11,758 nt of DNA from a virus (Duplodnaviria; Heunggongvirae; Uroviricota; Caudoviricetes): the IMG/VR virus record IMGVR_UViG_2690316233_000014; one strand, given 5' to 3'. The notes beneath the pieces are model-generated. The model ran no database searches and had not been told where the DNA came from. It worked only from the letters and a program-made list of their open reading frames with translations. This document shows, one piece after another, positions 1,270-7,676 of the stretch (positions are counted from its first letter, which is position 1; each line of letters begins with the position of its first letter). A program made the position numbers and the translations under genes.

Positions 1270-1581
1270 TTATTCGGGAAATAACGCCCGGATATTTCCG
1301 GCCATCTGACTGGTTATCTGTGCGGTTGATACTGGCTGTGACGCGGGGCATTCTGTCCTGGTTTGTGTCACTGATAACGCCTCATCGTCAGCCCATGCAG
1401 CCAGTCGGTAAGCCTCTGCTGGATTCATTTTCAGAAGTGCCAGCCCGGCCAGAAAAGCCACGCGTTGGCCGCTTTTGCGGGCTTCTGGTGTAAGGCTGTC
1501 CAGCCAGGCGCATGCTTCGCTTTCGTTCTTGACGGCCGCAGGCTTCAGATAGAAACTTATCCGTCTGGTTGGTGTCGTCAT
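1270..1581 (-). CDS. parR: ParR-like partition adaptor / centromere-binding RHH protein, 103 aa
   Basis: Internal ATG at 1581-1579 preferred over the track start at 1716 (which overlaps parM by 130 nt); strong AAGGAG 7 nt upstream. Sits immediately downstream of parM. Translation MTTPTRRISFYLKP...LDSLTPEARKSG...LAGLAL...LFPE parallels plasmid R1 ParR as I recall it. Confidence 0.75.
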   Translation of the reverse strand: MTTPTRRISFYLKPAAVKNESEACAWLDSLTPEARKSGQRVAFLAGLALLKMNPAEAYRLAAWADDEALSVTQTRTECPASQPVSTAQITSQMAGNIRALFPE

Positions 1582-1585
1582 TGGT

Positions 1586-2545
1586 TTACTCCTTGTCCAT
1601 TGCGTACAGCCCATTAACCAGAGCAAACTGTGGCACCCCGTACGCGATGAAAGTCGCATTAACTCCGCAGGCTTCGCGGATAGCGGGTGCCACAATCTCC
1701 GCCCCGCCACCGACAACCATCACCCGACCGTAACCCGAAAAACCCGCCAGCGCGCGGATCACGCGTTGTTTCAGTGTTTCTTCCTTTTCACGAATAACCG
1801 CCATCAGGCTGGCGTAATGCGCGTCATTGTGGATGTGCTGGCGCAGCCAGGCTTCATCATGGCGATGTTCGATAATGGTATTGGCGATGTGGTGACTGGT
1901 GCGCATACCGTTAGTGGCCATCACCGACAGTACGGCATCGGCCATCAGAGAAACGCCTACGTGTGGATCGCAAAACACCTGGCTGATACCTGCCAGTTGC
2001 CCCTGAACCTTTGCCACATCCAGCGTGGTTCCGCCCAAATCCACAATCAGCAGGGATTCAAACGGACTCATGTCAGCCAGTGCCTTAAAGCCAGCCGGAA
2101 TGGATTCAGGCATAACCCGCACGTTACGGATAGTGAATGCTTCGCCGTTCTGGTACTCCACCGGGCGCATGACGTTCGCTTTTTTGCGGTTGATGTTGGC
2201 CATGTCCGGCTGTGCGTTTGTGTCGAAATACTCGCTCAGTGGCAGGGTGACAACCACATCCACCTCCTGTGGCGTGATGCCTGATTTGACCAGCGCGTGA
2301 TGAATGGCAATGACATTCACATCGCTGTACTGGTATTGCGTGTCGGTCGTCTGGACAAAGCGATCGCTGACCGGATCAAAACCATAGCGCACGCCATCAA
2401 GCATGTAGTTCGCGGGCTGCGTGCCACCGAACGGCGCAGACCATTCCGACTTGAAGCTGTTCGGGCTGATGGCGTTGCGGCGTTCGCCGTTCTCAGTCCA
2501 TGCCAGCTTGATGTTGGTGGAGCCGTCGTCGATACAAATTTTCAT
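1586..2545 (-). CDS. parM: ParM/StbA actin-like segregation ATPase, 319 aa
   Basis: ATG at 2545-2543 with AAGGA upstream, TAA at 1586-1588. N-terminus MKICIDDGSTNIKLAW (actin-fold phosphate-1 motif) plus SPNSF, YQYSDVNV, IHHAL, VMPESIPAG, IVDLGGTTLD and VVGGGAE blocks match plasmid R1 ParM closely as I recall it. Confidence 0.9.
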   Translation of the reverse strand: MKICIDDGSTNIKLAWTENGERRNAISPNSFKSEWSAPFGGTQPANYMLDGVRYGFDPVSDRFVQTTDTQYQYSDVNVIAIHHALVKSGITPQEVDVVVTLPLSEYFDTNAQPDMANINRKKANVMRPVEYQNGEAFTIRNVRVMPESIPAGFKALADMSPFESLLIVDLGGTTLDVAKVQGQLAGISQVFCDPHVGVSLMADAVLSVMATNGMRTSHHIANTIIEHRHDEAWLRQHIHNDAHYASLMAVIREKEETLKQRVIRALAGFSGYGRVMVVGGGAEIVAPAIREACGVNATFIAYGVPQFALVNGLYAMDKE

Positions 2546-2576
2546 GTCGCTTTTCCTTATGTTGATTAATTAATCG

Positions 2577-2615
2577 TTTACGGGATTCTGAAATCCCGTT
2601 TTTGCCTGTTTTGTG
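2577..2615 (+). repeat. hairpin repeat copy 1: TTTACGGGATT-CTGA-AATCCCGT followed by a T-rich tail
   Basis: 8-bp stem ACGGGATT/AATCCCGT (2580-2587 / 2592-2599), 4-nt loop, then TTTTTGCCTGTTTTGTG. Lies between the Rep stop (2622) and the parM start (2545). Terminator-like on the + strand, or a ParR-binding (parC-like) site. Confidence 0.5.
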
Positions 2616-2621
2616 CGCGCT

Positions 2622-5462
2622 TCATATATCGCTGCGCGTTTTTTGGTCATTTACGGGATTCGTGAGTCCCGTTTCTGTCTGTTTTTTGTTTCCGCTGGTC
2701 AGGCCACCCCGCAGCAGGTCTGCTTTGCGGCTGGCGCGTTCAGTGGTTTCACTGATTCTCTGTGCGTGCTCTGCGTCGCGGATGGCGCGCAGCATGTCAG
2801 AAAGCACGGTAACGGGTGTTTTCATGGTGTTCTGGTCCTGCTGAAGTGTGGATGCCAGGCGTGCGGCGGCTTCAGGGTCTGATGCCCCCAGCTGTGCCAG
2901 ATAGCTGGCGACCGGGTTATGGCGGATCTCCGTGCTGCTTACGCCATGATTACGGCTCAGGCGCTGCCAGAGCTGCGTGATTCGGCTGTCCGGGCGGGTA
3001 TCCGGTTTGCGTACAATTTCAAATCCCTGCGGTGCAATGATGCTGCCGTCAACGTACAGACTGCCGCCCCGTAACAGGTGCTGCATCTGTTGTTCACCGA
3101 TATGCAGGCCGAGAGATTCAGCAGACTCCCGCCATTCTTTAGCGAGTAATTCGTGGTTATCAGGCAAAGGCCGCTGCTGTTTGCGGCTCTGTGTCCAGCT
3201 CTGCATTTCATCACTGCTGTTTTTTGCCTGTTTGTCACGAAGCGAATGCATCAGCGCCCGGCGTTCGTGCCGTTTCAGTGAGCGCATCCATTCGTTCACT
3301 TCAACGCCGTCAGGGAGCTGCGGCCACGGTGCTGGCCGTTCTTCCGGCTGTTCTGTCCCGTTGTTGTCCGTTTCCTGTACACGGGGACAGTTATTGCCAC
3401 GAGTCCAAGGGGCGGCAGGGCCGCCCTGAAGGTCAAAACCATTTTCGCGGGCACTGTCTTCCGCTTCCGGTTTGCGTCTTACCAGCTTCCAGTTATCCGG
3501 ATGCGTGCACACACGGGAGGATTCCCCGATGAGTGGTGACCAGATCCCGTAAATCTGTACGCTCTGTTCGCCGTAATCGTTCAGCTCATCGGCGAGGTCG
3601 TAGGCGGTGCGAATCAGGTAGTCCTTGCGTGGAACAAGTACGCCGCCCTGTTTCTCTATGTAGGTGGCAAAACATCCGGCATCAGCGGCGGCAAGAACCG
3701 CATCCATTGCGTCATCCTTCAGCCGTTGCGGGCCTTCCGGGTTGCGTGCCATCTGGCTGGCAAGGCGGCGCAGTTCACGCCATACCTGGCGGGAGGGGAT
3801 GCCAAAGAACTGGAACTGGCGGACCCGGTGAAGGCGCGCCCAGCCGATGGCGCGTTCCACGCTCTCGGCCATTGATTTTCCGGTTTCGTGGTCAACGCGT
3901 GGCTTGCCCGTTTTCGGGTCGATGCCATCCACGGCACGGCTGTCCAGGTTTTTCCCGATGTAGGTGGCGATGTAGCTGGTCGGTGTGCCTTTTGAGCCGT
4001 CGACGTACTCCGCCTTAAAGCGTGGGGTAATATCATCACCCAGCTCGTGACGATCTTCCTGAATGGCAATATCGCGGGTGTGGGACACAATAGTGTCGAT
4101 TTCTTCCGGATGAGCAAAGACCATCATATGCCAGTGCACGGTGCCGTCATGGTGAGGCTCCACCGTGCGGATGCCATACCAGCGCAGGCCGTCGCGGTTC
4201 AGTTTCTTGCGGACCGCCGCAAAAAACGTGTTAACCAGGTAATCGCTGGAGTCGCGCATGGTGGCCCCGTTCCATTTGGGATTCGGATGACCGTTCTCTG
4301 TTGTGGCGTGGTATTTTGACGGGCAGGTGACAGTCAGAAACACCGCTTTGTCGCCACGGGCTTCGGCCAGAAGTTCCAGCCCCTTCATGGTGGCCATCAT
4401 TTCTGCCTTACGGTGAACCGGGTTACTTACTCCCGCGTAATACACTGTCTCGAGATCAATCGTGAACCCATCTTCGTTTTCCAGCATGAAACTTTTCAGG
4501 AAATCGCGTGTTTTCTCGCGCTGTGCGCGAAACTCGCTTAATGCGTCCTGGCTCAGATAGGGCGATGTTTTTCTGGAAACCAGACAGGCGGCGCGGAGTT
4601 GTTCTTCTCTCCACTCGCAACGTAACAGCCACAGTTTGCGTTTCCACCATTCCGCACAGGTCAGGCGAAGGATTGCGCCCGGCAGCAGCTCCGTGTCCGG
4701 TTCGTTCCTCCGGTCTTTATCTGTTGTCAGTGCGTCATAATGTGGAGGCATGATGTGCAGGTGTAACGCCATGCGGGCCAGCATCTGATACGCCTTCAGC
4801 GTTACATCCATGGTCAGTTCGCCATCGGTCGCGCCAAAGCCATCGCAGAGTTTTTCGAAGGTGCTGCTGAACATCGCCGCCGTCATGGTGGCCAGCGTCT
4901 GTATCTGGTGTTTGTTGAGCTGCGGCAGGTAAAGCAAATCGTCCAGGCGTTCGCGTCCGGCAAGGGAGCGATAACCAGGTGTCAGCCAGCGCCCGTCAGT
5001 GCGATCCAGACGTTCGAATATTTTGCGCAGGGTTCCGCGTGTATAGCGTTCCGCCTGCCAGCTCTTTTTGCCTTTCTGACGATCGGCTTCCTGCTTCTTG
5101 CGCAGGAAAGAGAGGTGGCGGCTCAGAGGTTCTCGCAGATAAACGGGAAGCGCCTTCAGTGTGGCAAAGGCACGGGCTACCGGGTCTTGTTCTGTTGCCC
5201 GGCGCTTACTGATGATGCTCTGTGCCAGCTTTTCACGCTGTCCGGCTTCCTCAAGGGATGCCATGAGTTTTTTACCCATGGCGGATTGTGCGAAAAAGGC
5301 TTCTTCCTTCGCTTCCTGTTCTTCCTGTGCCCTTTTGTCCGCCTCAAGGTAGCAACGGATGGCGCGTTGCAGGTCGGTTTCAGTTTCCTGCCTGCGCTCC
5401 GTAAATCTGGCCGGATCAATAGCTGGTCGTGGTTCATTCCAGCTCCATGCAAACGCACTCAT
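2622..5462 (-). CDS. rolling-circle replication initiator, HUH endonuclease of the P2 gpA / phiX174 A type, about 946 aa
   Basis: HUH motif VHWHMMVF (codons near 4128-4136) and paired active-site tyrosines in SYIATYIGK (YxxxY, near 3960-3976). No Walker A motif, so not a P4 alpha primase-helicase. ATG at 5462-5460 forms an ATGA overlap with the upstream stop; the track start at 5489 is GTG. Confidence 0.85.
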   Translation of the reverse strand: MSAFAWSWNEPRPAIDPARFTERRQETETDLQRAIRCYLEADKRAQEEQEAKEEAFFAQSAMGKKLMASLEEAGQREKLAQSIISKRRATEQDPVARAFATLKALPVYLREPLSRHLSFLRKKQEADRQKGKKSWQAERYTRGTLRKIFERLDRTDGRWLTPGYRSLAGRERLDDLLYLPQLNKHQIQTLATMTAAMFSSTFEKLCDGFGATDGELTMDVTLKAYQMLARMALHLHIMPPHYDALTTDKDRRNEPDTELLPGAILRLTCAEWWKRKLWLLRCEWREEQLRAACLVSRKTSPYLSQDALSEFRAQREKTRDFLKSFMLENEDGFTIDLETVYYAGVSNPVHRKAEMMATMKGLELLAEARGDKAVFLTVTCPSKYHATTENGHPNPKWNGATMRDSSDYLVNTFFAAVRKKLNRDGLRWYGIRTVEPHHDGTVHWHMMVFAHPEEIDTIVSHTRDIAIQEDRHELGDDITPRFKAEYVDGSKGTPTSYIATYIGKNLDSRAVDGIDPKTGKPRVDHETGKSMAESVERAIGWARLHRVRQFQFFGIPSRQVWRELRRLASQMARNPEGPQRLKDDAMDAVLAAADAGCFATYIEKQGGVLVPRKDYLIRTAYDLADELNDYGEQSVQIYGIWSPLIGESSRVCTHPDNWKLVRRKPEAEDSARENGFDLQGGPAAPWTRGNNCPRVQETDNNGTEQPEERPAPWPQLPDGVEVNEWMRSLKRHERRALMHSLRDKQAKNSSDEMQSWTQSRKQQRPLPDNHELLAKEWRESAESLGLHIGEQQMQHLLRGGSLYVDGSIIAPQGFEIVRKPDTRPDSRITQLWQRLSRNHGVSSTEIRHNPVASYLAQLGASDPEAAARLASTLQQDQNTMKTPVTVLSDMLRAIRDAEHAQRISETTERASRKADLLRGGLTSGNKKQTETGLTNPVNDQKTRSDI
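2651..2688 (+). repeat. hairpin repeat copy 2: TTTACGGGATT-CGTG-AGTCCCGT followed by a T-rich tail
   Basis: About 35 of 42 positions identical to copy 1 and 73 bp away. Stem ACGGGATT/AGTCCCGT with one G-U pair. Lies inside the last ~20 codons of the Rep ORF. Confidence 0.5.
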
Positions 5463-5848
5463 GGCTGGTATCCCGTCACGCGCTGCCACTCCTGCGAGAA
5501 GAGGGCGGAAAGGCGGTTAAATTCAGCGGTGTATTCACTCAGCGAGGCACACCCGCCAGCAGTGCGATGCGCCAGCATTGCTGCAAATACGGAGGCCGGG
5601 GAGTCGTAATACGCCAGCAGTGATTCGCCGTGCGGTGTCAGGCAGTGTAACGCCAGTCCGTGTGGTGTGAAATCCACGCGGTAGCAGTCGTCTACTGTGA
5701 AATAAAGGGTGTCTGCATTCTCCGGTTTTGTGGTGCGTGCTCTGTTGTCACGACCACGGATGTAGAGATCAAATAACCCCTGAAGAACGGGAGCCAGACG
5801 GGTGTCCTGTGTGCGCACCCATCTTGTGAAGTCATGAGCGTCAATCAT
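5459..5848 (-). CDS. hypothetical protein, 129 aa, translationally coupled to Rep
   Basis: ATG at 5848-5846, TGA at 5459-5461 overlapping the Rep ATG. Family not recognised. Confidence 0.6.
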   Translation of the reverse strand: MIDAHDFTRWVRTQDTRLAPVLQGLFDLYIRGRDNRARTTKPENADTLYFTVDDCYRVDFTPHGLALHCLTPHGESLLAYYDSPASVFAAMLAHRTAGGCASLSEYTAEFNRLSALFSQEWQRVTGYQP

Positions 5849-5920
5849 GCTGCAATTCTCTTTACTACAGATGTGCGAAGGCCTCCCGCCGCAAGGTGCA
5901 GGAAAGGCCCGGAACAGGAA

Positions 5921-6151
5921 TTAATGGAGTTTGTTTTGCTGCTGGATGAGCTGTTGAAGCTCGTGCAGATCATCCGCCAGATAGCTGAAAACAGAGGCGG
6001 AATAAATGTTTGATAGTGCGTGGCTGCGCTCATGCAGCATATTGATGTGCATGATTTGCGCGACGCGTGATGCGCGGGAAAGTCTGCGGTTGATTTCAGT
6101 CTGGATGTGACGACGCTCCGCGATAGCGCGGTGCTGTTTGCGGTCTGCCAT
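5921..6151 (-). CDS. small basic helical protein, 76 aa
   Basis: ATG at 6151-6149 with AGAGG 8 nt upstream, TAA at 5921-5923. Translation MADRKQHRAIAERRHIQTEINRRLSR... is protein-like; preferred over the overlapping Ser/Arg-rich 205-aa track ORF. Confidence 0.55.
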   Translation of the reverse strand: MADRKQHRAIAERRHIQTEINRRLSRASRVAQIMHINMLHERSHALSNIYSASVFSYLADDLHELQQLIQQQNKLH

Positions 6152-6194
6152 GGTGTGGCCTCTTTGCTCGGTGATAGAAATAACTCACCATCCA

Positions 6195-6386
6195 GAGTTG
6201 AGAATCTCGGGGTGGCGAGACGTACAGGGTTCTCAACACCGGAGAGCAAAGAATCCGGCCCGACCGAAGTCGGCCCCGTACGCCCCGCCATAATTCTGAC
6301 GCGAAAAAGACGTGGCAATACAGTACGCACAAAAAAACCGCTTGCGCGGTTATGCGCTTTGCTCTGTATCGGGTTGAGAATCCCGG
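6195..6386 (-). ncRNA. candidate cis-regulatory or small-RNA leader with three related boxes
   Basis: On the + strand, box A GAGTTGAGAATCTCGG (6195-6210) and box C GGGTTGAGAATCCCGG (6371-6386) are 14/16 identical. Box B AGGGTTCTCAACACCGG (6226-6242) is complementary to both over 10-12 bp. A GGCCGAC-UUCG-GUCGGCC hairpin (6257-6276, - strand RNA) and a terminator lie between them. No ORF with a plausible RBS. Confidence 0.4.
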
Positions 6387-6455
6387 CACCCGTTTTATGA
6401 GGTGCAGCGGAAATGTAACCTGACCGATTGAGGCATGGCAAGCGGTTTTTTTGTG
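6328..6455. repeat. perfect 18-bp inverted repeat CACAAAAAAACCGCTTGC / GCAAGCGGTTTTTTTGTG flanking a 92-bp segment
   Basis: Left arm 6328-6345 and right arm 6438-6455 are exact reverse complements. The left arm is half of the - strand terminator; the right arm with CCGATTG...CAAGCGG plus a T7 run resembles a weaker + strand terminator. Confidence 0.55.
6330..6352 (-). terminator. intrinsic terminator or attenuator inside the leader
   Basis: On the - strand: AACCGC-GCAA-GCGGTT followed by seven U residues (GNRA-type tetraloop). Located upstream of the 76-aa, 129-aa and Rep genes. Confidence 0.45.
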
Positions 6456-6473
6456 TGTGCATGTTCTGGTTTC

Positions 6474-6773
6474 TTACTGGTTCAGAAAAAAATCAAAAAC
6501 GTTATCGATGCGTTGCAGCAGCTCTTGCTGCATTGCTTCCGGCGTTTCCGGTTCGCCAGGTGCCCCCAGCGTTGCGCAGAAATCAGCGATTTCATGATGG
6601 AGCGTCAGGCGAATGGCAGGAGCCGTGGTTCTGGCGTGCTCCAGCTCATTCAGCAGTGCCAGCACAGCAGACGGCGAGAGCATTGCGCGAAATGCCAGTA
6701 ATTTTTGAGGCGTTGCCATTCGTTGCAGGGCAAATGCCAGTTCGCGTAGCTTCTGGTGGTTGATGGTGCTCAT
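6474..6773 (-). CDS. hypothetical protein, 99 aa
   Basis: ATG at 6773-6771 in an ATGA overlap with the upstream stop; TAA at 6474-6476. Family not recognised. Confidence 0.6.
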   Translation of the reverse strand: MSTINHQKLRELAFALQRMATPQKLLAFRAMLSPSAVLALLNELEHARTTAPAIRLTLHHEIADFCATLGAPGEPETPEAMQQELLQRIDNVFDFFLNQ

Positions 6774-7259: not shown

Positions 7260-7676
7260 CTATGCGTTAAATACGGCACGTTGCGCGTCATCAATGAATA
7301 CAGCTTGAGATCGTTCTATCAGGCGGAGATTTGTCAGAAGCTCTGACTCTTTTGTGTGGTAAGGCGTTATCAGGTATTTGCCGTGCAGTTCGGCAATAAT
7401 GGTGTATTGCGTCATTATTGCCGAACCAAGAATGTAAATGCGGCGTCCAATGCTGGACGGATTCATGGCTGCAACTGTTGACTGTGTTTTAAGAGTGTCG
7501 ATTTCTTTGCTCTGTTCCTCAATAATTTTGGCTGCTTCAGAGGGGGCTATTGCGATGGTCAGTGCGTAAAGCGCTGCCATATGTTGATTATCTTTCTGGG
7601 CTGCCCTGGACAGCTTGTCTTGCTCTGCTGACACTATTTTTAATGTATTGATAATATTTTTTTCTCTTGCGTTCAT
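7260..7676 (-). CDS. hypothetical protein, 138 aa
   Basis: ATG at 7676-7674 with GGAG 8 nt upstream, preceded by about 100 nt of non-coding sequence containing repeats. Confidence 0.6.
   Translation of the reverse strand: MNAREKNIINTLKIVSAEQDKLSRAAQKDNQHMAALYALTIAIAPSEAAKIIEEQSKEIDTLKTQSTVAAMNPSSIGRRIYILGSAIMTQYTIIAELHGKYLITPYHTKESELLTNLRLIERSQAVFIDDAQRAVFNA

What the first reader, a model, noticed from the sequence alone, without database searches (positions are those of the whole stretch)
6328..6455. Perfect 18-bp inverted repeat flanking a 92-bp unit, forming back-to-back terminator halves
CACAAAAAAACCGCTTGC (6328-6345) and its exact reverse complement (6438-6455) bracket box C. Each arm supplies the stem half plus U-tract of a terminator pointing outward on opposite strands. 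This fits a small sense/antisense RNA cassette or a bidirectionally insulated regulatory unit; an 18-bp perfect inverted repeat is unlikely by chance.
Basis: seen in the sequence. Interest (0 to 1): 0.5.

Follow-up and report, generated by a model that had tools for sequence, protein, structure and literature searches.

The report
Phage sRNA terminator mirrored at its promoter
The 18-bp inverted repeat is real: one arm is the terminator of a known phage immunity small RNA (IsrK/seqA type), and the other lies just upstream of that RNA's promoter, at the start of a read-through reading frame, in a P2-like prophage carrying a P4-style RNA immunity cassette. The cassette is a known kind; whether the mirror-image pairing has a function is untested.

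Summary
Arms 6328-6345 and 6438-6455 form a perfect 18-bp inverted repeat; 300 shuffles never exceeded 14.

All the genes here are on the minus strand. Rfam finds an IsrK-type sRNA (6405..6331) followed by a C4/CI antisense RNA (6295..6208). This is the P4/P1-type RNA immunity cassette, sitting in the early operon of a P88-like P2-family prophage, upstream of a derepression (epsilon-like) gene and replication gene A.

The left arm is the 3' strand plus U-tract of the IsrK terminator. The right arm is not a terminator. It covers an A-tract and the start of the predicted -35 of the IsrK promoter, and also codons 3-9 of a conserved ~205-codon ORF like P4 eta. That ORF starts upstream of the promoter and ends in an ATGA overlap with the next gene.

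The right arm is therefore transcribed only from the upstream early promoter. In such RNAs folding predicts an 18-21-bp long-range helix that replaces the terminator hairpin and buries the ORF's first codons. The arms co-vary between the E. coli and the Salmonella/Serratia lineages, but this is a single event.

The cassette is a known kind. The arm pairing is a plausible, untested regulatory addition.

The parts
6328..6345 (-). Left arm. On the minus-strand RNA it reads GCAA (loop) GCGG (3' strand of the terminator stem) UUUUUUU (U-tract, 6337..6331) GUG.
   Evidence: The Rfam isrK alignment ends in this hairpin plus U-tract, and the terminator scan finds stem 6351..6336 on the minus strand.
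6438..6455 (-). Right arm. On the minus strand it reads CAC, A7 (6452..6446), CCGC, TTGC. It covers the region just upstream of the IsrK promoter and the first 4 nt of the predicted -35 hexamer. It also forms codons 3-9 of the eta-like ORF.
   Evidence: It is conserved at the outer edge of the module in 26 different upstream junctions.
6331..6405 (-). IsrK / P4 seqA-type small RNA: hairpin 1, hairpin 2 carrying the immunity box (6384..6370), and a Rho-independent terminator.
   Evidence: Rfam RF01394, 63.1 bits against a gathering score of 50. P4 itself gives the same hit at the PLE leader. Relatives score 56-68 bits.
6412..6441 (-). Predicted sigma-70 promoter of the IsrK RNA: -35 TTGCCA at 6441..6436, an 18-nt spacer, -10 TACATT at 6417..6412. 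The implied start is about 6405, the first position of the Rfam model.
   Evidence: consensus match only. GCTTGCC at the -35 is shared with the P4 PLE region.
6208..6295 (-). C4 / P4 CI-type antisense immunity RNA. Its loop box at 6239..6227 is complementary to the IsrK box and to the downstream box.
   Evidence: Rfam RF01695, 78.5 bits against a gathering score of 45. The three boxes change together between phages.
6195..6208 (-). seqC-like target box (GAGAUUCUCAACUC), just upstream of the ribosome-binding region of the derepression gene.
5845..6462 (-). Eta-like bridging ORF of 205 codons. Its ATG (6462..6460) lies 11 nt after the stop of the upstream gene and upstream of the IsrK promoter. 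It reads through both arms, IsrK, C4 and seqC. Its TGA overlaps the ATG of the next gene (ATGA at 5848..5845).
   Evidence: It gives a weak Phage_ASH match (E 0.0026), whereas P4 eta gives 3.8e-23. It is 50% identical to the Salmonella counterpart.
5921..6151 (-). Derepression protein (P4 epsilon family). It is the first ORF after seqC and is nested out of frame inside the eta-like ORF.
   Evidence: Pfam PF25738, E 7.5e-08. RefSeq names it 'derepression protein'.
6474..6773 (-). Upstream early-operon gene (99 aa, weak Ead/Ea22 similarity). Transcripts through it carry the right arm into RNA.
2622..5848 (-). Downstream genes reached only by reading through the cassette: a 129-aa ORF (5848..5459) and replication endonuclease gpA (to 2622).
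   Evidence: Phage_GPA, E 5.5e-132. RefSeq annotation. ATGA junctions.

Best explanation
**What it is (confidence about 0.9).** The window is the early operon of a P88-like (Xuanwuvirus, P2-family) prophage. It carries a P4-type RNA immunity cassette on the minus strand, in this order:
- a constitutive-type promoter;
- IsrK/seqA sRNA with an intrinsic terminator;
- C4/CI antisense RNA;
- the seqC box;
- an epsilon-like derepression gene;
- replication genes.

The left arm of the repeat is the 3' strand and U-tract of the IsrK terminator. The right arm lies at about -50 to -33 of the IsrK promoter. It is also codons 3-9 of an eta-like ORF that begins upstream of that promoter. The right arm is therefore absent from IsrK itself and is present only in RNAs that enter from the upstream early promoter.

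**How the complementarity most likely works (inferred; about 0.4).** In early-operon transcripts the two arms pair in cis. They form an 18-21-bp helix that encloses the whole IsrK unit. This helix takes the 3' strand of the terminator away from its local partner and buries the first codons of the bridging ORF. That would link the fate of upstream-initiated transcripts to translation, in two cases:
- A ribosome that has just finished the upstream gene reinitiates on the bridging ORF. It occupies the right arm and translates through IsrK and C4. As shown for P4 eta, this lets transcription and translation run on into the replication genes.
- An RNA that is not being translated closes into the long helix and is silent for de novo initiation.

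Whether the helix lowers or raises termination at the IsrK terminator is not settled. Thermodynamically it abolishes the local hairpin. Topologically, however, it is itself a giant-loop hairpin with an A-tract facing the U-tract.
For: **Identity of the parts**
- Rfam hits for isrK and C4 lie above their gathering scores. The same pair is found in P4 and in relatives.
- A terminator and a promoter are predicted at the arms.
- RefSeq and Pfam context: derepression protein and gpA.

**The eta-like ORF**
- It is open for about 198-209 codons in roughly 90 of 99 distinct P2-like loci, with an in-frame ATG or GTG at the module edge.
- Its stop overlaps the next gene's ATG in 88 of about 94 distinct loci.
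- The published P4 mechanism is that eta starts upstream of the internal constitutive promoter, is coupled to the upstream gene, and prevents termination when translated (PMC10111431, read).

**Pairing of the arms**
- For RNA starting at the predicted IsrK start, the terminator hairpin has probability about 0.96.
- For RNA starting upstream of the right arm, that probability is 0.00 and the long-range pairs are at 0.9-1.0. This holds even when the 3' end is cut at the end of the stem.
- The same switch is predicted for most P2-type variants, though several already have a weak predicted hairpin. It is not predicted for the P4-like classes or for most lambdoid ones.
- The unpaired probability of codons 2-9 falls from 0.72 to 0.16 once the left arm is made. 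It stays low in an 870-nt RNA.

**Restriction to one context**
- The strong repeat is found only in loci with gpA plus the derepression gene. It is absent from P4-like satellites and lambdoid prophages that carry IsrK.

**Co-variation**
- Pair 14-140 is A-U in 21 units and G-C in all 6 Salmonella-lineage units.
- Pair 15-139 is C-G in 21 units and U-A in 3.
- These changes lie beyond the U-tract, so they exist only in read-through RNA.
- They are matched in the distal arm but not, in the same register, in the local flank.
Against: - There are no transcript data for this element. The promoter, the start site and the read-through are all predicted or taken by homology.
- The co-variation is essentially one lineage split. 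My rough chance estimate is 0.02-0.06. DNA-level template switching between the arms would give the same pattern.
- Several positions are tolerated as mismatches. 28-126 is U.C in 19 of 27 units, 17-137 is C.U in 7, and 11-142 is unpaired in 20. In some lineages (L074/L103) the complementarity is decaying.
- The right arm competes for the 3' strand of the terminator rather than pre-empting its 5' strand. The adjacent local hairpin should therefore win kinetically. A helix abutting the U-tract can itself terminate transcription (Yarnell and Roberts 1999, recalled from memory).
- Predicted loss of the terminator hairpin also occurs by chance in some lambdoid upstream contexts (L006, L108, L068).
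- P4 manages the same task without any such repeat.
- The motif AAAAAAACCGCTTG also occurs upstream of the promoter in P4-like satellites that have a different terminator. This suggests a promoter-related origin.
Confidence: 0.42

Rival explanations
1. The complementarity has no RNA function. The right arm exists because the IsrK promoter has an A-tract where a proximal UP-element subsite would sit, followed by its -35, and because an ORF starts there. The left arm exists because it is a terminator (GC stem plus U-tract). A7:U7 and CCGC:GCGG are convergent features. The remaining matches come from shared descent or from DNA-level homogenisation of a quasi-palindrome by template switching.
For: - The A7 run lies 5-11 nt upstream of the predicted -35. 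This matches the proximal UP-subsite position recalled from Estrem et al. 1999.
- AAAAAAACCGCTTG also occurs upstream of the promoter in P4-like satellites with a different terminator (GCGTG).
- P4 and lambdoid IsrK units work without the repeat.
- Mismatches are tolerated at several helix positions, and the terminator-loop position 126 takes all four bases.
- The arms in L074/L103 are decaying.
Against: - Eight further matching bases beyond A7 would be about 1.5e-5 by chance at a fixed register, and shuffles never exceed 14.
- The Salmonella/Serratia lineage changed both arms symmetrically beyond the A/U tracts.
- The strong repeat is confined to the one context in which upstream transcripts must cross the terminator without a protein antiterminator.
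Confidence: 0.3
2. The complementarity acts in trans. Free IsrK sRNA, made constitutively in the lysogen, pairs through its terminator 3' strand and U-tail with the right arm on early-operon transcripts. The right arm covers codons 3-9 of the bridging ORF. This would block translation of the ORF and so extend immunity to transcripts from the upstream promoter.
For: - There are 18 nt of perfect complementarity within the first codons of the ORF.
- Rfam describes IsrK as an Hfq-binding RNA.
- An A-rich tract on the target and a U-tail on the sRNA is the usual geometry for Hfq-assisted pairing (from general knowledge).
- In Gifsy-1, short IsrK acts in trans on the long transcript from its own locus (PMC4825925).
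Against: - The pairing segment of IsrK is locked in its own terminator hairpin.
- The co-varying positions 139/140 lie beyond the U-tract, so they are probably absent from terminated IsrK.
- The arms are nearly invariant across phages with different immunity boxes. This pairing would therefore not be immunity-specific.
Confidence: 0.1
3. The two arms are halves of back-to-back terminators that point outward on opposite strands, insulating a small sense/antisense RNA unit in both directions.
For: - The left arm is a true terminator half on the minus strand.
- On a hypothetical plus-strand RNA the two arms could pair, which would place a stem just before the T7 run at 6446-6452 (sequence).
Against: - No local hairpin precedes the right-arm T-run on the plus strand, and the terminator scan finds none there.
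- No plus-strand genes or transcription units run across this region.
- A stem with a 92-nt loop is not a usual intrinsic terminator.
- Both RNAs of the unit are on the minus strand.
Confidence: 0.05
4. The arms are terminal inverted repeats of a small mobile cassette (MITE-like), or paired binding sites for a DNA-binding protein.
For: - The 128-bp size with 18-bp terminal repeats resembles a MITE.
- Homology with P88 and Shae_phiSM breaks just outside the right arm.
Against: - There is no homology break at the left arm. The alignment continues through C4 and the downstream genes.
- The unit is always found in the same prophage context, with a median of one place per genome.
- The right-hand break coincides with the start codon of the eta-like ORF.
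- The left arm is fully accounted for as a terminator.
Confidence: 0.03

Closest known systems
Satellite phage P4 immunity region (PLE promoter - seqA - CI RNA - seqC, inside the eta/kil ORF)
   Same: - The same two Rfam families occur in the same order and on the same strand.
- The -35 GCTTGCC is shared.
- An ORF of about 200 codons starts upstream of the internal promoter, next to the stop of the upstream gene, and uses the same frame through the RNA genes.
- An epsilon-family derepression gene and replication genes lie downstream.
- In the published mechanism, translation of eta from the upstream promoter prevents termination (PMC10111431).
   Different: - The host element is a P2-family phage (gpA replication endonuclease, cox-like gene and C-type repressor), not a satellite.
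- There is no kil. The first ORF after seqC is the epsilon-like gene, and it is out of frame with the eta-like ORF.
- The ORF is only weakly similar to Phage_ASH.
- P4 has no inverted repeat between the promoter-upstream region and the seqA terminator.
IsrK of the Salmonella Gifsy-1 prophage (isrK-orf45-anrP)
   Same: - Same Rfam family (RF01394).
- A short terminated sRNA together with a read-through transcript that carries a C4-like RNA (STnc1160) and an antirepressor-type gene (PMC4825925).
   Different: - Gifsy-1 is lambdoid, and its downstream gene is AnrP.
- The read-through studied there starts at the isrK promoter itself.
- The lambdoid IsrK units examined here have no right-arm counterpart. 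Gifsy-1 itself was not inspected.
Phage P1/P7 immI region (c4 antisense RNA with a1/b1 and a2/b2 targets controlling icd-ant)
   Same: - An antisense RNA in the same transcript as its two target boxes controls an antirepressor.
- Immunity specificity is set by co-varying boxes.
- Rfam has a c4-a1b1 family that also matches the P4 leader.
   Different: - The promoter arrangement and downstream genes differ.
- No repeat of this kind was examined or is known to me there.
Long-range RNA structures that enforce translational coupling or processing (RNA-phage MS2 coat/replicase; rRNA processing stems)
   Same: A distant complementary segment buries the start region of a downstream cistron, or encloses a structured RNA. 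It is opened by ribosomes that arrive from the upstream cistron. This is resemblance by logic only, and rests on general knowledge.
   Different: There is no homology. Here the partner strand is also the 3' half of an intrinsic terminator. RNase III cleavage or coupling has not been tested.

Membership tests
IsrK / seqA sRNA (Rfam RF01394) | Covariance-model score at or above the curated gathering score, over the full model length | tested here: met
   63.1 bits against 50, model positions 1-77, at 6405..6331 on the minus strand. Relatives score 56-68 bits.
IsrK / seqA sRNA (Rfam RF01394) | Ends in a Rho-independent terminator and is followed by a C4/CI-like RNA in the same orientation | tested here: met
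   Terminator stem 6351..6336 plus U7. C4 lies at 6295..6208 on the same strand.
IsrK / seqA sRNA (Rfam RF01394) | Expressed as a discrete, Hfq-binding RNA | not testable with these tools
   There are no expression or binding data for this element.
C4 / CI antisense RNA (Rfam RF01695) | Covariance-model score at or above the gathering score | tested here: met
   78.5 bits against 45, model positions 1-87.
C4 / CI antisense RNA (Rfam RF01695) | A loop box complementary to one box upstream and one downstream in the same transcript, co-varying between heteroimmune phages | tested here: met
   The boxes are at 6384..6370, 6239..6227 and 6208..6195. All three change together in P88, 569R5 and Shae_phiSM.
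P4-type immunity operon (promoter internal to eta; eta coupled to the upstream gene) | A long ORF starts upstream of the internal promoter and reads through seqA, CI and seqC | tested here: met
   ORF 6462..5845 in the window. It is open in about 90 of 99 distinct loci. The frame is the same as in P4.
P4-type immunity operon (promoter internal to eta; eta coupled to the upstream gene) | Translation of that ORF from upstream-promoter transcripts prevents termination | not testable with these tools
   Only sequence hallmarks of coupling are seen. There is an 11-nt gap after the upstream stop in the window, an ATGA overlap in the Salmonella lineage, and an ATGA at the ORF's end in 88 of about 94 loci.
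Intrinsic terminator | A GC-rich local hairpin followed immediately by a U-tract on the transcribed strand | tested here: met
   Left arm, minus strand. Hairpin probability is about 0.96 in RNA that starts at the IsrK start site.
   The scan finds no plus-strand terminator at 6438-6455. The only local option is a 4-bp stem with a 16-nt loop (sequence).
Bidirectional terminator | One hairpin flanked by an A-tract on one side and a T-tract on the other, so that both strands see a stem followed by a U-tract | tested here: not met
   On the plus strand the IsrK hairpin is followed by TTATGCGCTTTGC, not a U-tract. The A-tract partner lies 92 nt away, not adjacent.
Classical attenuator / antiterminator | The alternative helix sequesters the 5' strand of the terminator before the 3' strand is made | tested here: not met
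   The right arm is complementary to the 3' strand and U-tract, not to the 5' strand.
MITE-like mobile cassette | Terminal inverted repeats at both homology breakpoints, with copies in unrelated contexts | tested here: not met
   Homology continues past the left arm. The unit is found only in the gpA/derepression context. The median is one place per genome.
UP-element-containing sigma-70 promoter | An A-tract at about -46 to -40 relative to a -35/-10 pair | tested here: inconclusive
   The position fits. However, the consensus is recalled from memory, the promoter is only a 9-of-12 consensus match, and activity cannot be tested.

The most novel reading that the evidence does not exclude
The repeat is a transcript-origin discriminator. 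Only RNAs that enter the immunity cassette from the phage early promoter carry the right arm. Its pairing with the IsrK terminator strand ties termination and read-through into the replication genes to ribosome occupancy of the first codons of an eta-like bridging ORF. This would be an RNA-only solution, in a phage family without N/Q-type antiterminators, to the problem that P4 solves by translation alone.
Probability: 0.35. Interest if true: 0.6.

Novelty: new member of a known kind. Interest (0 to 1): 0.42.

Why it matters
The cassette is common. It is present in about a fifth of complete E. coli genomes. RefSeq either leaves it unannotated or labels it 'ash family protein'. It probably controls the antirepressor-like gene and the replication genes of a widespread group of P2-family prophages.

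It also shows that a helper-type phage carries the RNA immunity logic known from its satellite P4, including an eta-like ORF that bridges translation across two structured RNAs.

If the arm pairing is functional, it would be a compact example of one terminator being read differently according to where the transcript began. It would also be a useful part for synthetic insulation. If it is not functional, it is a caution that a promoter-upstream A-tract and a terminator can mimic a designed palindrome.

Tried and rejected
1. **Wasted genome scan.** The single genome-contig scan, with pattern AAAACGGGTGYCGGG, returned almost only chance matches in unrelated bacteria.
2. **Badly designed first pattern.** The first IMG/VR pattern (AAAAWCGGGTGYCGGG) excluded the window's own variant. 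It returned mostly one lambdoid class plus noise. The second pattern worked.
3. **Weak complementarity elsewhere.** I looked for it in P4-like and Stx-phage upstream regions. Bulged or wobble pairings of 10-11 bp can be drawn by eye, but they do not displace the terminator hairpin in folding. I do not count them as support.
4. **Classical antiterminator.** Rejected, because the right arm pairs with the 3' strand of the terminator.
5. **MITE or mobile cassette.** Rejected, because there is no breakpoint at the left arm.
6. **Second promoter-like site.** The site at 6318..6290 would start inside the first stem of C4. I therefore do not treat it as the C4 promoter.
7. **Retrieval biased to near-identical loci.** The search for related loci with the derepression alignment returned only near-identical E. 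coli loci. Re-querying with Salmonella proteins was needed to reach a second lineage.
8. **Original P4 papers not held.** Sabbattini 1995 and Forti 1999 are not in the library. I rely on a secondary summary and on memory.
9. **No literature on this combination.** Searches for IsrK together with P2-like phages found nothing specific.
Full report
**1. The observation**

The plus strand reads CACAAAAAAACCGCTTGC at 6328-6345, and its exact reverse complement lies at 6438-6455, 92 nt away. With one mismatch the repeat extends to 21 nt (I3). It is the longest perfect inverted repeat with a spacer of 200 nt or less in the window. In 300 dinucleotide-preserving shuffles the longest was 9-14 nt. The repeat is real and is not a chance feature.

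**2. What lies there**

All plausible genes between about 100 and 9005 are on the minus strand. The window is the early region of a P2-family prophage of the P88 / Xuanwuvirus type, integrated next to yecA. On the plus strand it carries a helix-turn-helix repressor-like gene and an integrase. On the minus strand it carries a small DNA-binding gene at the position of cox (RefSeq 'DNA-binding protein'; no Pfam hit), several small early genes, replication endonuclease gpA and ParM-like genes.

Rfam, at gathering thresholds, finds two RNAs on the minus strand:
- an IsrK-type sRNA at 6405..6331 (63.1 bits, cut-off 50);
- a C4 antisense RNA at 6295..6208 (78.5 bits, cut-off 45).

P4 itself gives the same two hits in the same order, at its PLE leader and at cI. 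The literature equates IsrK with P4 seqA, and C4 with P4 CI RNA (PMC4825925; PMC3632133).

Three short boxes are mutually complementary: IsrK hairpin-2 loop 6384..6370, C4 loop 6239..6227, and a downstream box 6208..6195. They change together between related phages. That is the hallmark of this kind of immunity system.

The first ORF after the downstream box is a 76-aa protein of the P4 epsilon 'derepression' family (PF25738). It is followed by a 129-aa ORF and then gpA.

**3. Identity of the two arms**

Read on the minus strand, the left arm is GCAA-GCGG-UUUUUUU-GUG. This is the loop, the 3' strand of the stem and the U-tract of the IsrK terminator (stem AACCGC/GCGGUU at 6351..6336).

The right arm, read on the same strand, is CAC-AAAAAAA-CCGC-TTGC. 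The promoter scan places a -35 TTGCCA at 6441..6436 and a -10 TACATT at 6417..6412. That puts the start at about 6405, the first position of the Rfam model. The -35 context GCTTGCC is shared with the P4 PLE region. The right arm therefore spans roughly -50 to -33 of the predicted IsrK promoter. Its A7 run sits where a proximal UP-element subsite would be (position recalled from Estrem et al. 1999, not tested).

On the plus strand no hairpin precedes the right-arm T-run, and no terminator is called there. The IsrK hairpin read on the plus strand has no U-tract after it. The 'back-to-back outward terminators' reading fails for the right arm.

**4. An ORF that changes the picture**

A 205-codon ORF (6462..5845, minus strand; listed) has these properties:
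- It starts 11 nt after the stop of the upstream 99-aa gene.
- It starts upstream of the IsrK promoter.
- It runs through the right arm (codons 3-9), IsrK, its terminator, C4 and the downstream box.
- Its TGA overlaps the ATG of the 129-aa ORF (ATGA).

Across 99 distinct P2-type loci, an in-frame ATG or GTG sits at the outer edge of the module. The frame stays open for about 198-209 codons in roughly 90 of them, including the Salmonella/Serratia lineage. Twenty-six different upstream junctions are represented.

In 88 of about 94 distinct loci the stop overlaps the start of the next gene. That gene is a 121-130-aa ORF or gpA itself. In the Salmonella lineage the start also overlaps the stop of the upstream gene.

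The window ORF is 50% identical to the Salmonella one. It is only weakly similar to Pfam Phage_ASH (E 0.0026), whereas the P4 eta ORF scores 3.8e-23. It uses the same frame as P4 eta through the homologous RNA sequence.

The P4 mechanism is published:
- A constitutive promoter lies inside eta.
- Full-length eta is translated only from an upstream promoter and is coupled to the upstream gene.
- Its translation prevents termination.

This is summarised in PMC10111431, read; the original paper is not held.

This ORF explains why homology with P88 and Shae_phiSM ends just outside the right arm. The module begins at this ORF's start codon.

**5. Does the complementarity mean anything?**

*Distribution.* IsrK units occur behind many different upstream regions. 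The strong repeat (A5-7 CCGC TTGC upstream, GCGG T7 downstream) occurs only in loci that also encode gpA and the derepression protein. P4-like satellites and lambdoid prophages lack it, and so does P4.

*Folding.*
- RNA that starts at the predicted IsrK start forms the terminator hairpin with probability about 0.96.
- RNA that starts upstream of the right arm gives a hairpin probability of 0.00 and long-range pairs at 0.9-1.0. This holds even if the RNA is cut at the end of the stem.
- Most P2-type variants behave the same way. The P4-like classes and most lambdoid ones do not, but a few lambdoid ones lose the hairpin by chance. The prediction alone is therefore weak evidence.
- The mean unpaired probability of codons 2-9 of the bridging ORF drops from 0.72 to 0.16 once the left arm exists. 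It stays low in an 870-nt RNA.

*Co-variation.* In an alignment of 27 distinct arm combinations:
- The E. coli/Citrobacter lineage has CAC-A7-CCGCU paired with AGCGG-U7-GUG.
- The Salmonella/Serratia lineage has CACGUAC-A5-CCGCU paired with AGCGG-U7-ACGUG.
- Pair 14-140 is A-U in 21 units and G-C in all 6 units of the second lineage.
- Pair 15-139 is C-G in 21, U-A in 3 and unpaired in 3.
- The same changes break the in-register local helix formed with the terminator's own 5' flank, although that helix can shift register.
- The co-varying positions lie beyond the U-tract. They therefore exist only in RNAs that both began upstream and read through.

*Caveats.*
- This is essentially one evolutionary event. 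I estimate chance at roughly 0.02-0.06.
- Template switching between the arms at the DNA level would look the same.
- Several helix positions tolerate mismatches (28-126, 17-137, 11-142).
- In most units the perfect run is 15 nt, not 18.

**6. Mechanism**

What is shown:
- the identities of the RNAs;
- the terminator half;
- the position of the right arm relative to a predicted promoter;
- the conserved bridging ORF and its ATGA junctions;
- conservation of the arms and their limited co-variation.

What is inferred:
- Transcripts from the early promoter cross the cassette.
- The arms pair in those transcripts.
- This pairing matters.

My best reading is a cis long-range helix that is specific to upstream-initiated RNA. 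A ribosome that reinitiates on the bridging ORF occupies the right arm and translates through IsrK and C4, as in P4. This carries expression into the replication genes. Untranslated RNA closes into the helix, which buries the ORF's first codons.

I cannot say whether the helix lowers or raises termination. It removes the local hairpin thermodynamically. However, it competes for the 3' strand, so the adjacent hairpin should form first. In addition, a helix that abuts a U-tract and has an A-tract opposite it is itself terminator-like (Yarnell and Roberts 1999, from memory).

The variants and rivals are:
- trans pairing of free IsrK with the right arm;
- an RNase III-type processing stem;
- no RNA function at all, that is, promoter A-tract, -35 and ORF start on one side and a terminator on the other.

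**7. Comparison with what is known, and novelty**

The cassette is a member of the IsrK/seqA-C4/CI family. The operon logic is that of P4: a promoter internal to eta, with an epsilon-family gene and replication genes downstream.

It differs in several ways:
- The host element is a P2-family phage.
- There is no kil.
- The epsilon-like gene is nested out of frame in the eta-like ORF.
- It has the promoter-to-terminator inverted repeat, which P4 lacks.

I found no paper describing this cassette in P2-like phages. RefSeq mostly leaves it unannotated or calls the ORF 'ash family protein'.

I rate it a new member of a known kind. The arm pairing is a possible new variant.

**8. Verdict**

Interest is moderate. 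The feature is largely explained by known biology. The residual question is whether the mirror symmetry is a working RNA switch, and that is directly testable.

Noticed in passing
window 5845-6462 (minus strand): A 205-codon ORF starts upstream of the IsrK promoter and reads through IsrK, its terminator, C4 and seqC. It ends in an ATGA overlap with the next gene. It is conserved as an open frame in about 90 of 99 distinct related loci, and it looks like the counterpart of P4 eta.
   Followed up: yes
window 5921-6151 within 5845-6462 (minus strand): The derepression (epsilon-like) gene lies entirely inside the eta-like ORF in another frame. The 129-aa ORF is start/stop-coupled to the eta-like ORF, not to the derepression gene. 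This suggests two reading programmes that depend on where transcription began.
   Followed up: partly
window 6370-6384, 6227-6239, 6195-6208: Three mutually complementary boxes (IsrK loop, C4 loop, downstream box) change together between P88, 569R5, Shae_phiSM and the Salmonella relatives. This is as expected for immunity specificity.
   Followed up: partly
window 6352-6357 with 6325-6330; also loci L005-L179: The sequence just 5' of the terminator stem (CGCAU here; CGCAC, CGAUAC or CGACAC elsewhere) is complementary to the sequence just 3' of the U-tract (GUGCG here; AUGCG, GUAUCG or GUGUCG elsewhere) across all IsrK classes. This implies an extended helix that exists only in read-through RNA.
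   Followed up: partly
window 6445-6453 and 6331-6337: Within the eta-like ORF the A7 and U7 runs sit in frame as X XXY YYZ heptamers (A AAA AAC and U UUU UUU). This is the pattern of -1 frameshift sites. It could be coincidence, at about 1 in 9.
   Followed up: no
window 6290-6318 (minus strand): A second promoter-like site (-35 TTGCCA, -10 AATTAT) lies between the IsrK terminator and C4. It would start transcription inside the first stem of C4, so its role is unclear.
   Followed up: no
window 2574-2615 and 2647-2688: Two 42-nt direct repeats (81% identical) each contain a hairpin (ACGGGATT...AATCCCGT) followed by a T-run on the plus strand. One lies between the end of gpA and the ParM-like gene, and the other lies inside the end of gpA. 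All neighbouring genes are on the minus strand.
   Followed up: no
window 7388-7401 and 7413-7426: A perfect 14-bp inverted repeat with an 11-nt spacer lies inside a 138-aa early ORF.
   Followed up: no
window 1270-2545: A ParM-like segregation gene and a plasmid-partition-family gene sit downstream of gpA in this integrated P2-type prophage (RefSeq annotation of the near-identical locus L001).
   Followed up: no
L459-L461 (Salmonella), 60-440 and 1190-1500: Two complete IsrK-C4-derepression cassettes with different immunity boxes occur in tandem in one prophage, each with its own right arm and in-frame start codon.
   Followed up: partly
L305/L306 about 2632-2690 (P88-type upstream context): A 9-bp hairpin (CCGGCCAG...CTGGCCGG) followed 13 nt later by T7 lies between the upstream Band_7 gene and the right arm. 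It may insulate that accessory gene from the cassette.
   Followed up: no
E. coli RefSeq genomes: The IsrK/C4 pair is present in about a fifth of complete E. coli genomes. It is mostly unannotated, or is covered by a protein call named 'ash family protein'.
   Followed up: partly
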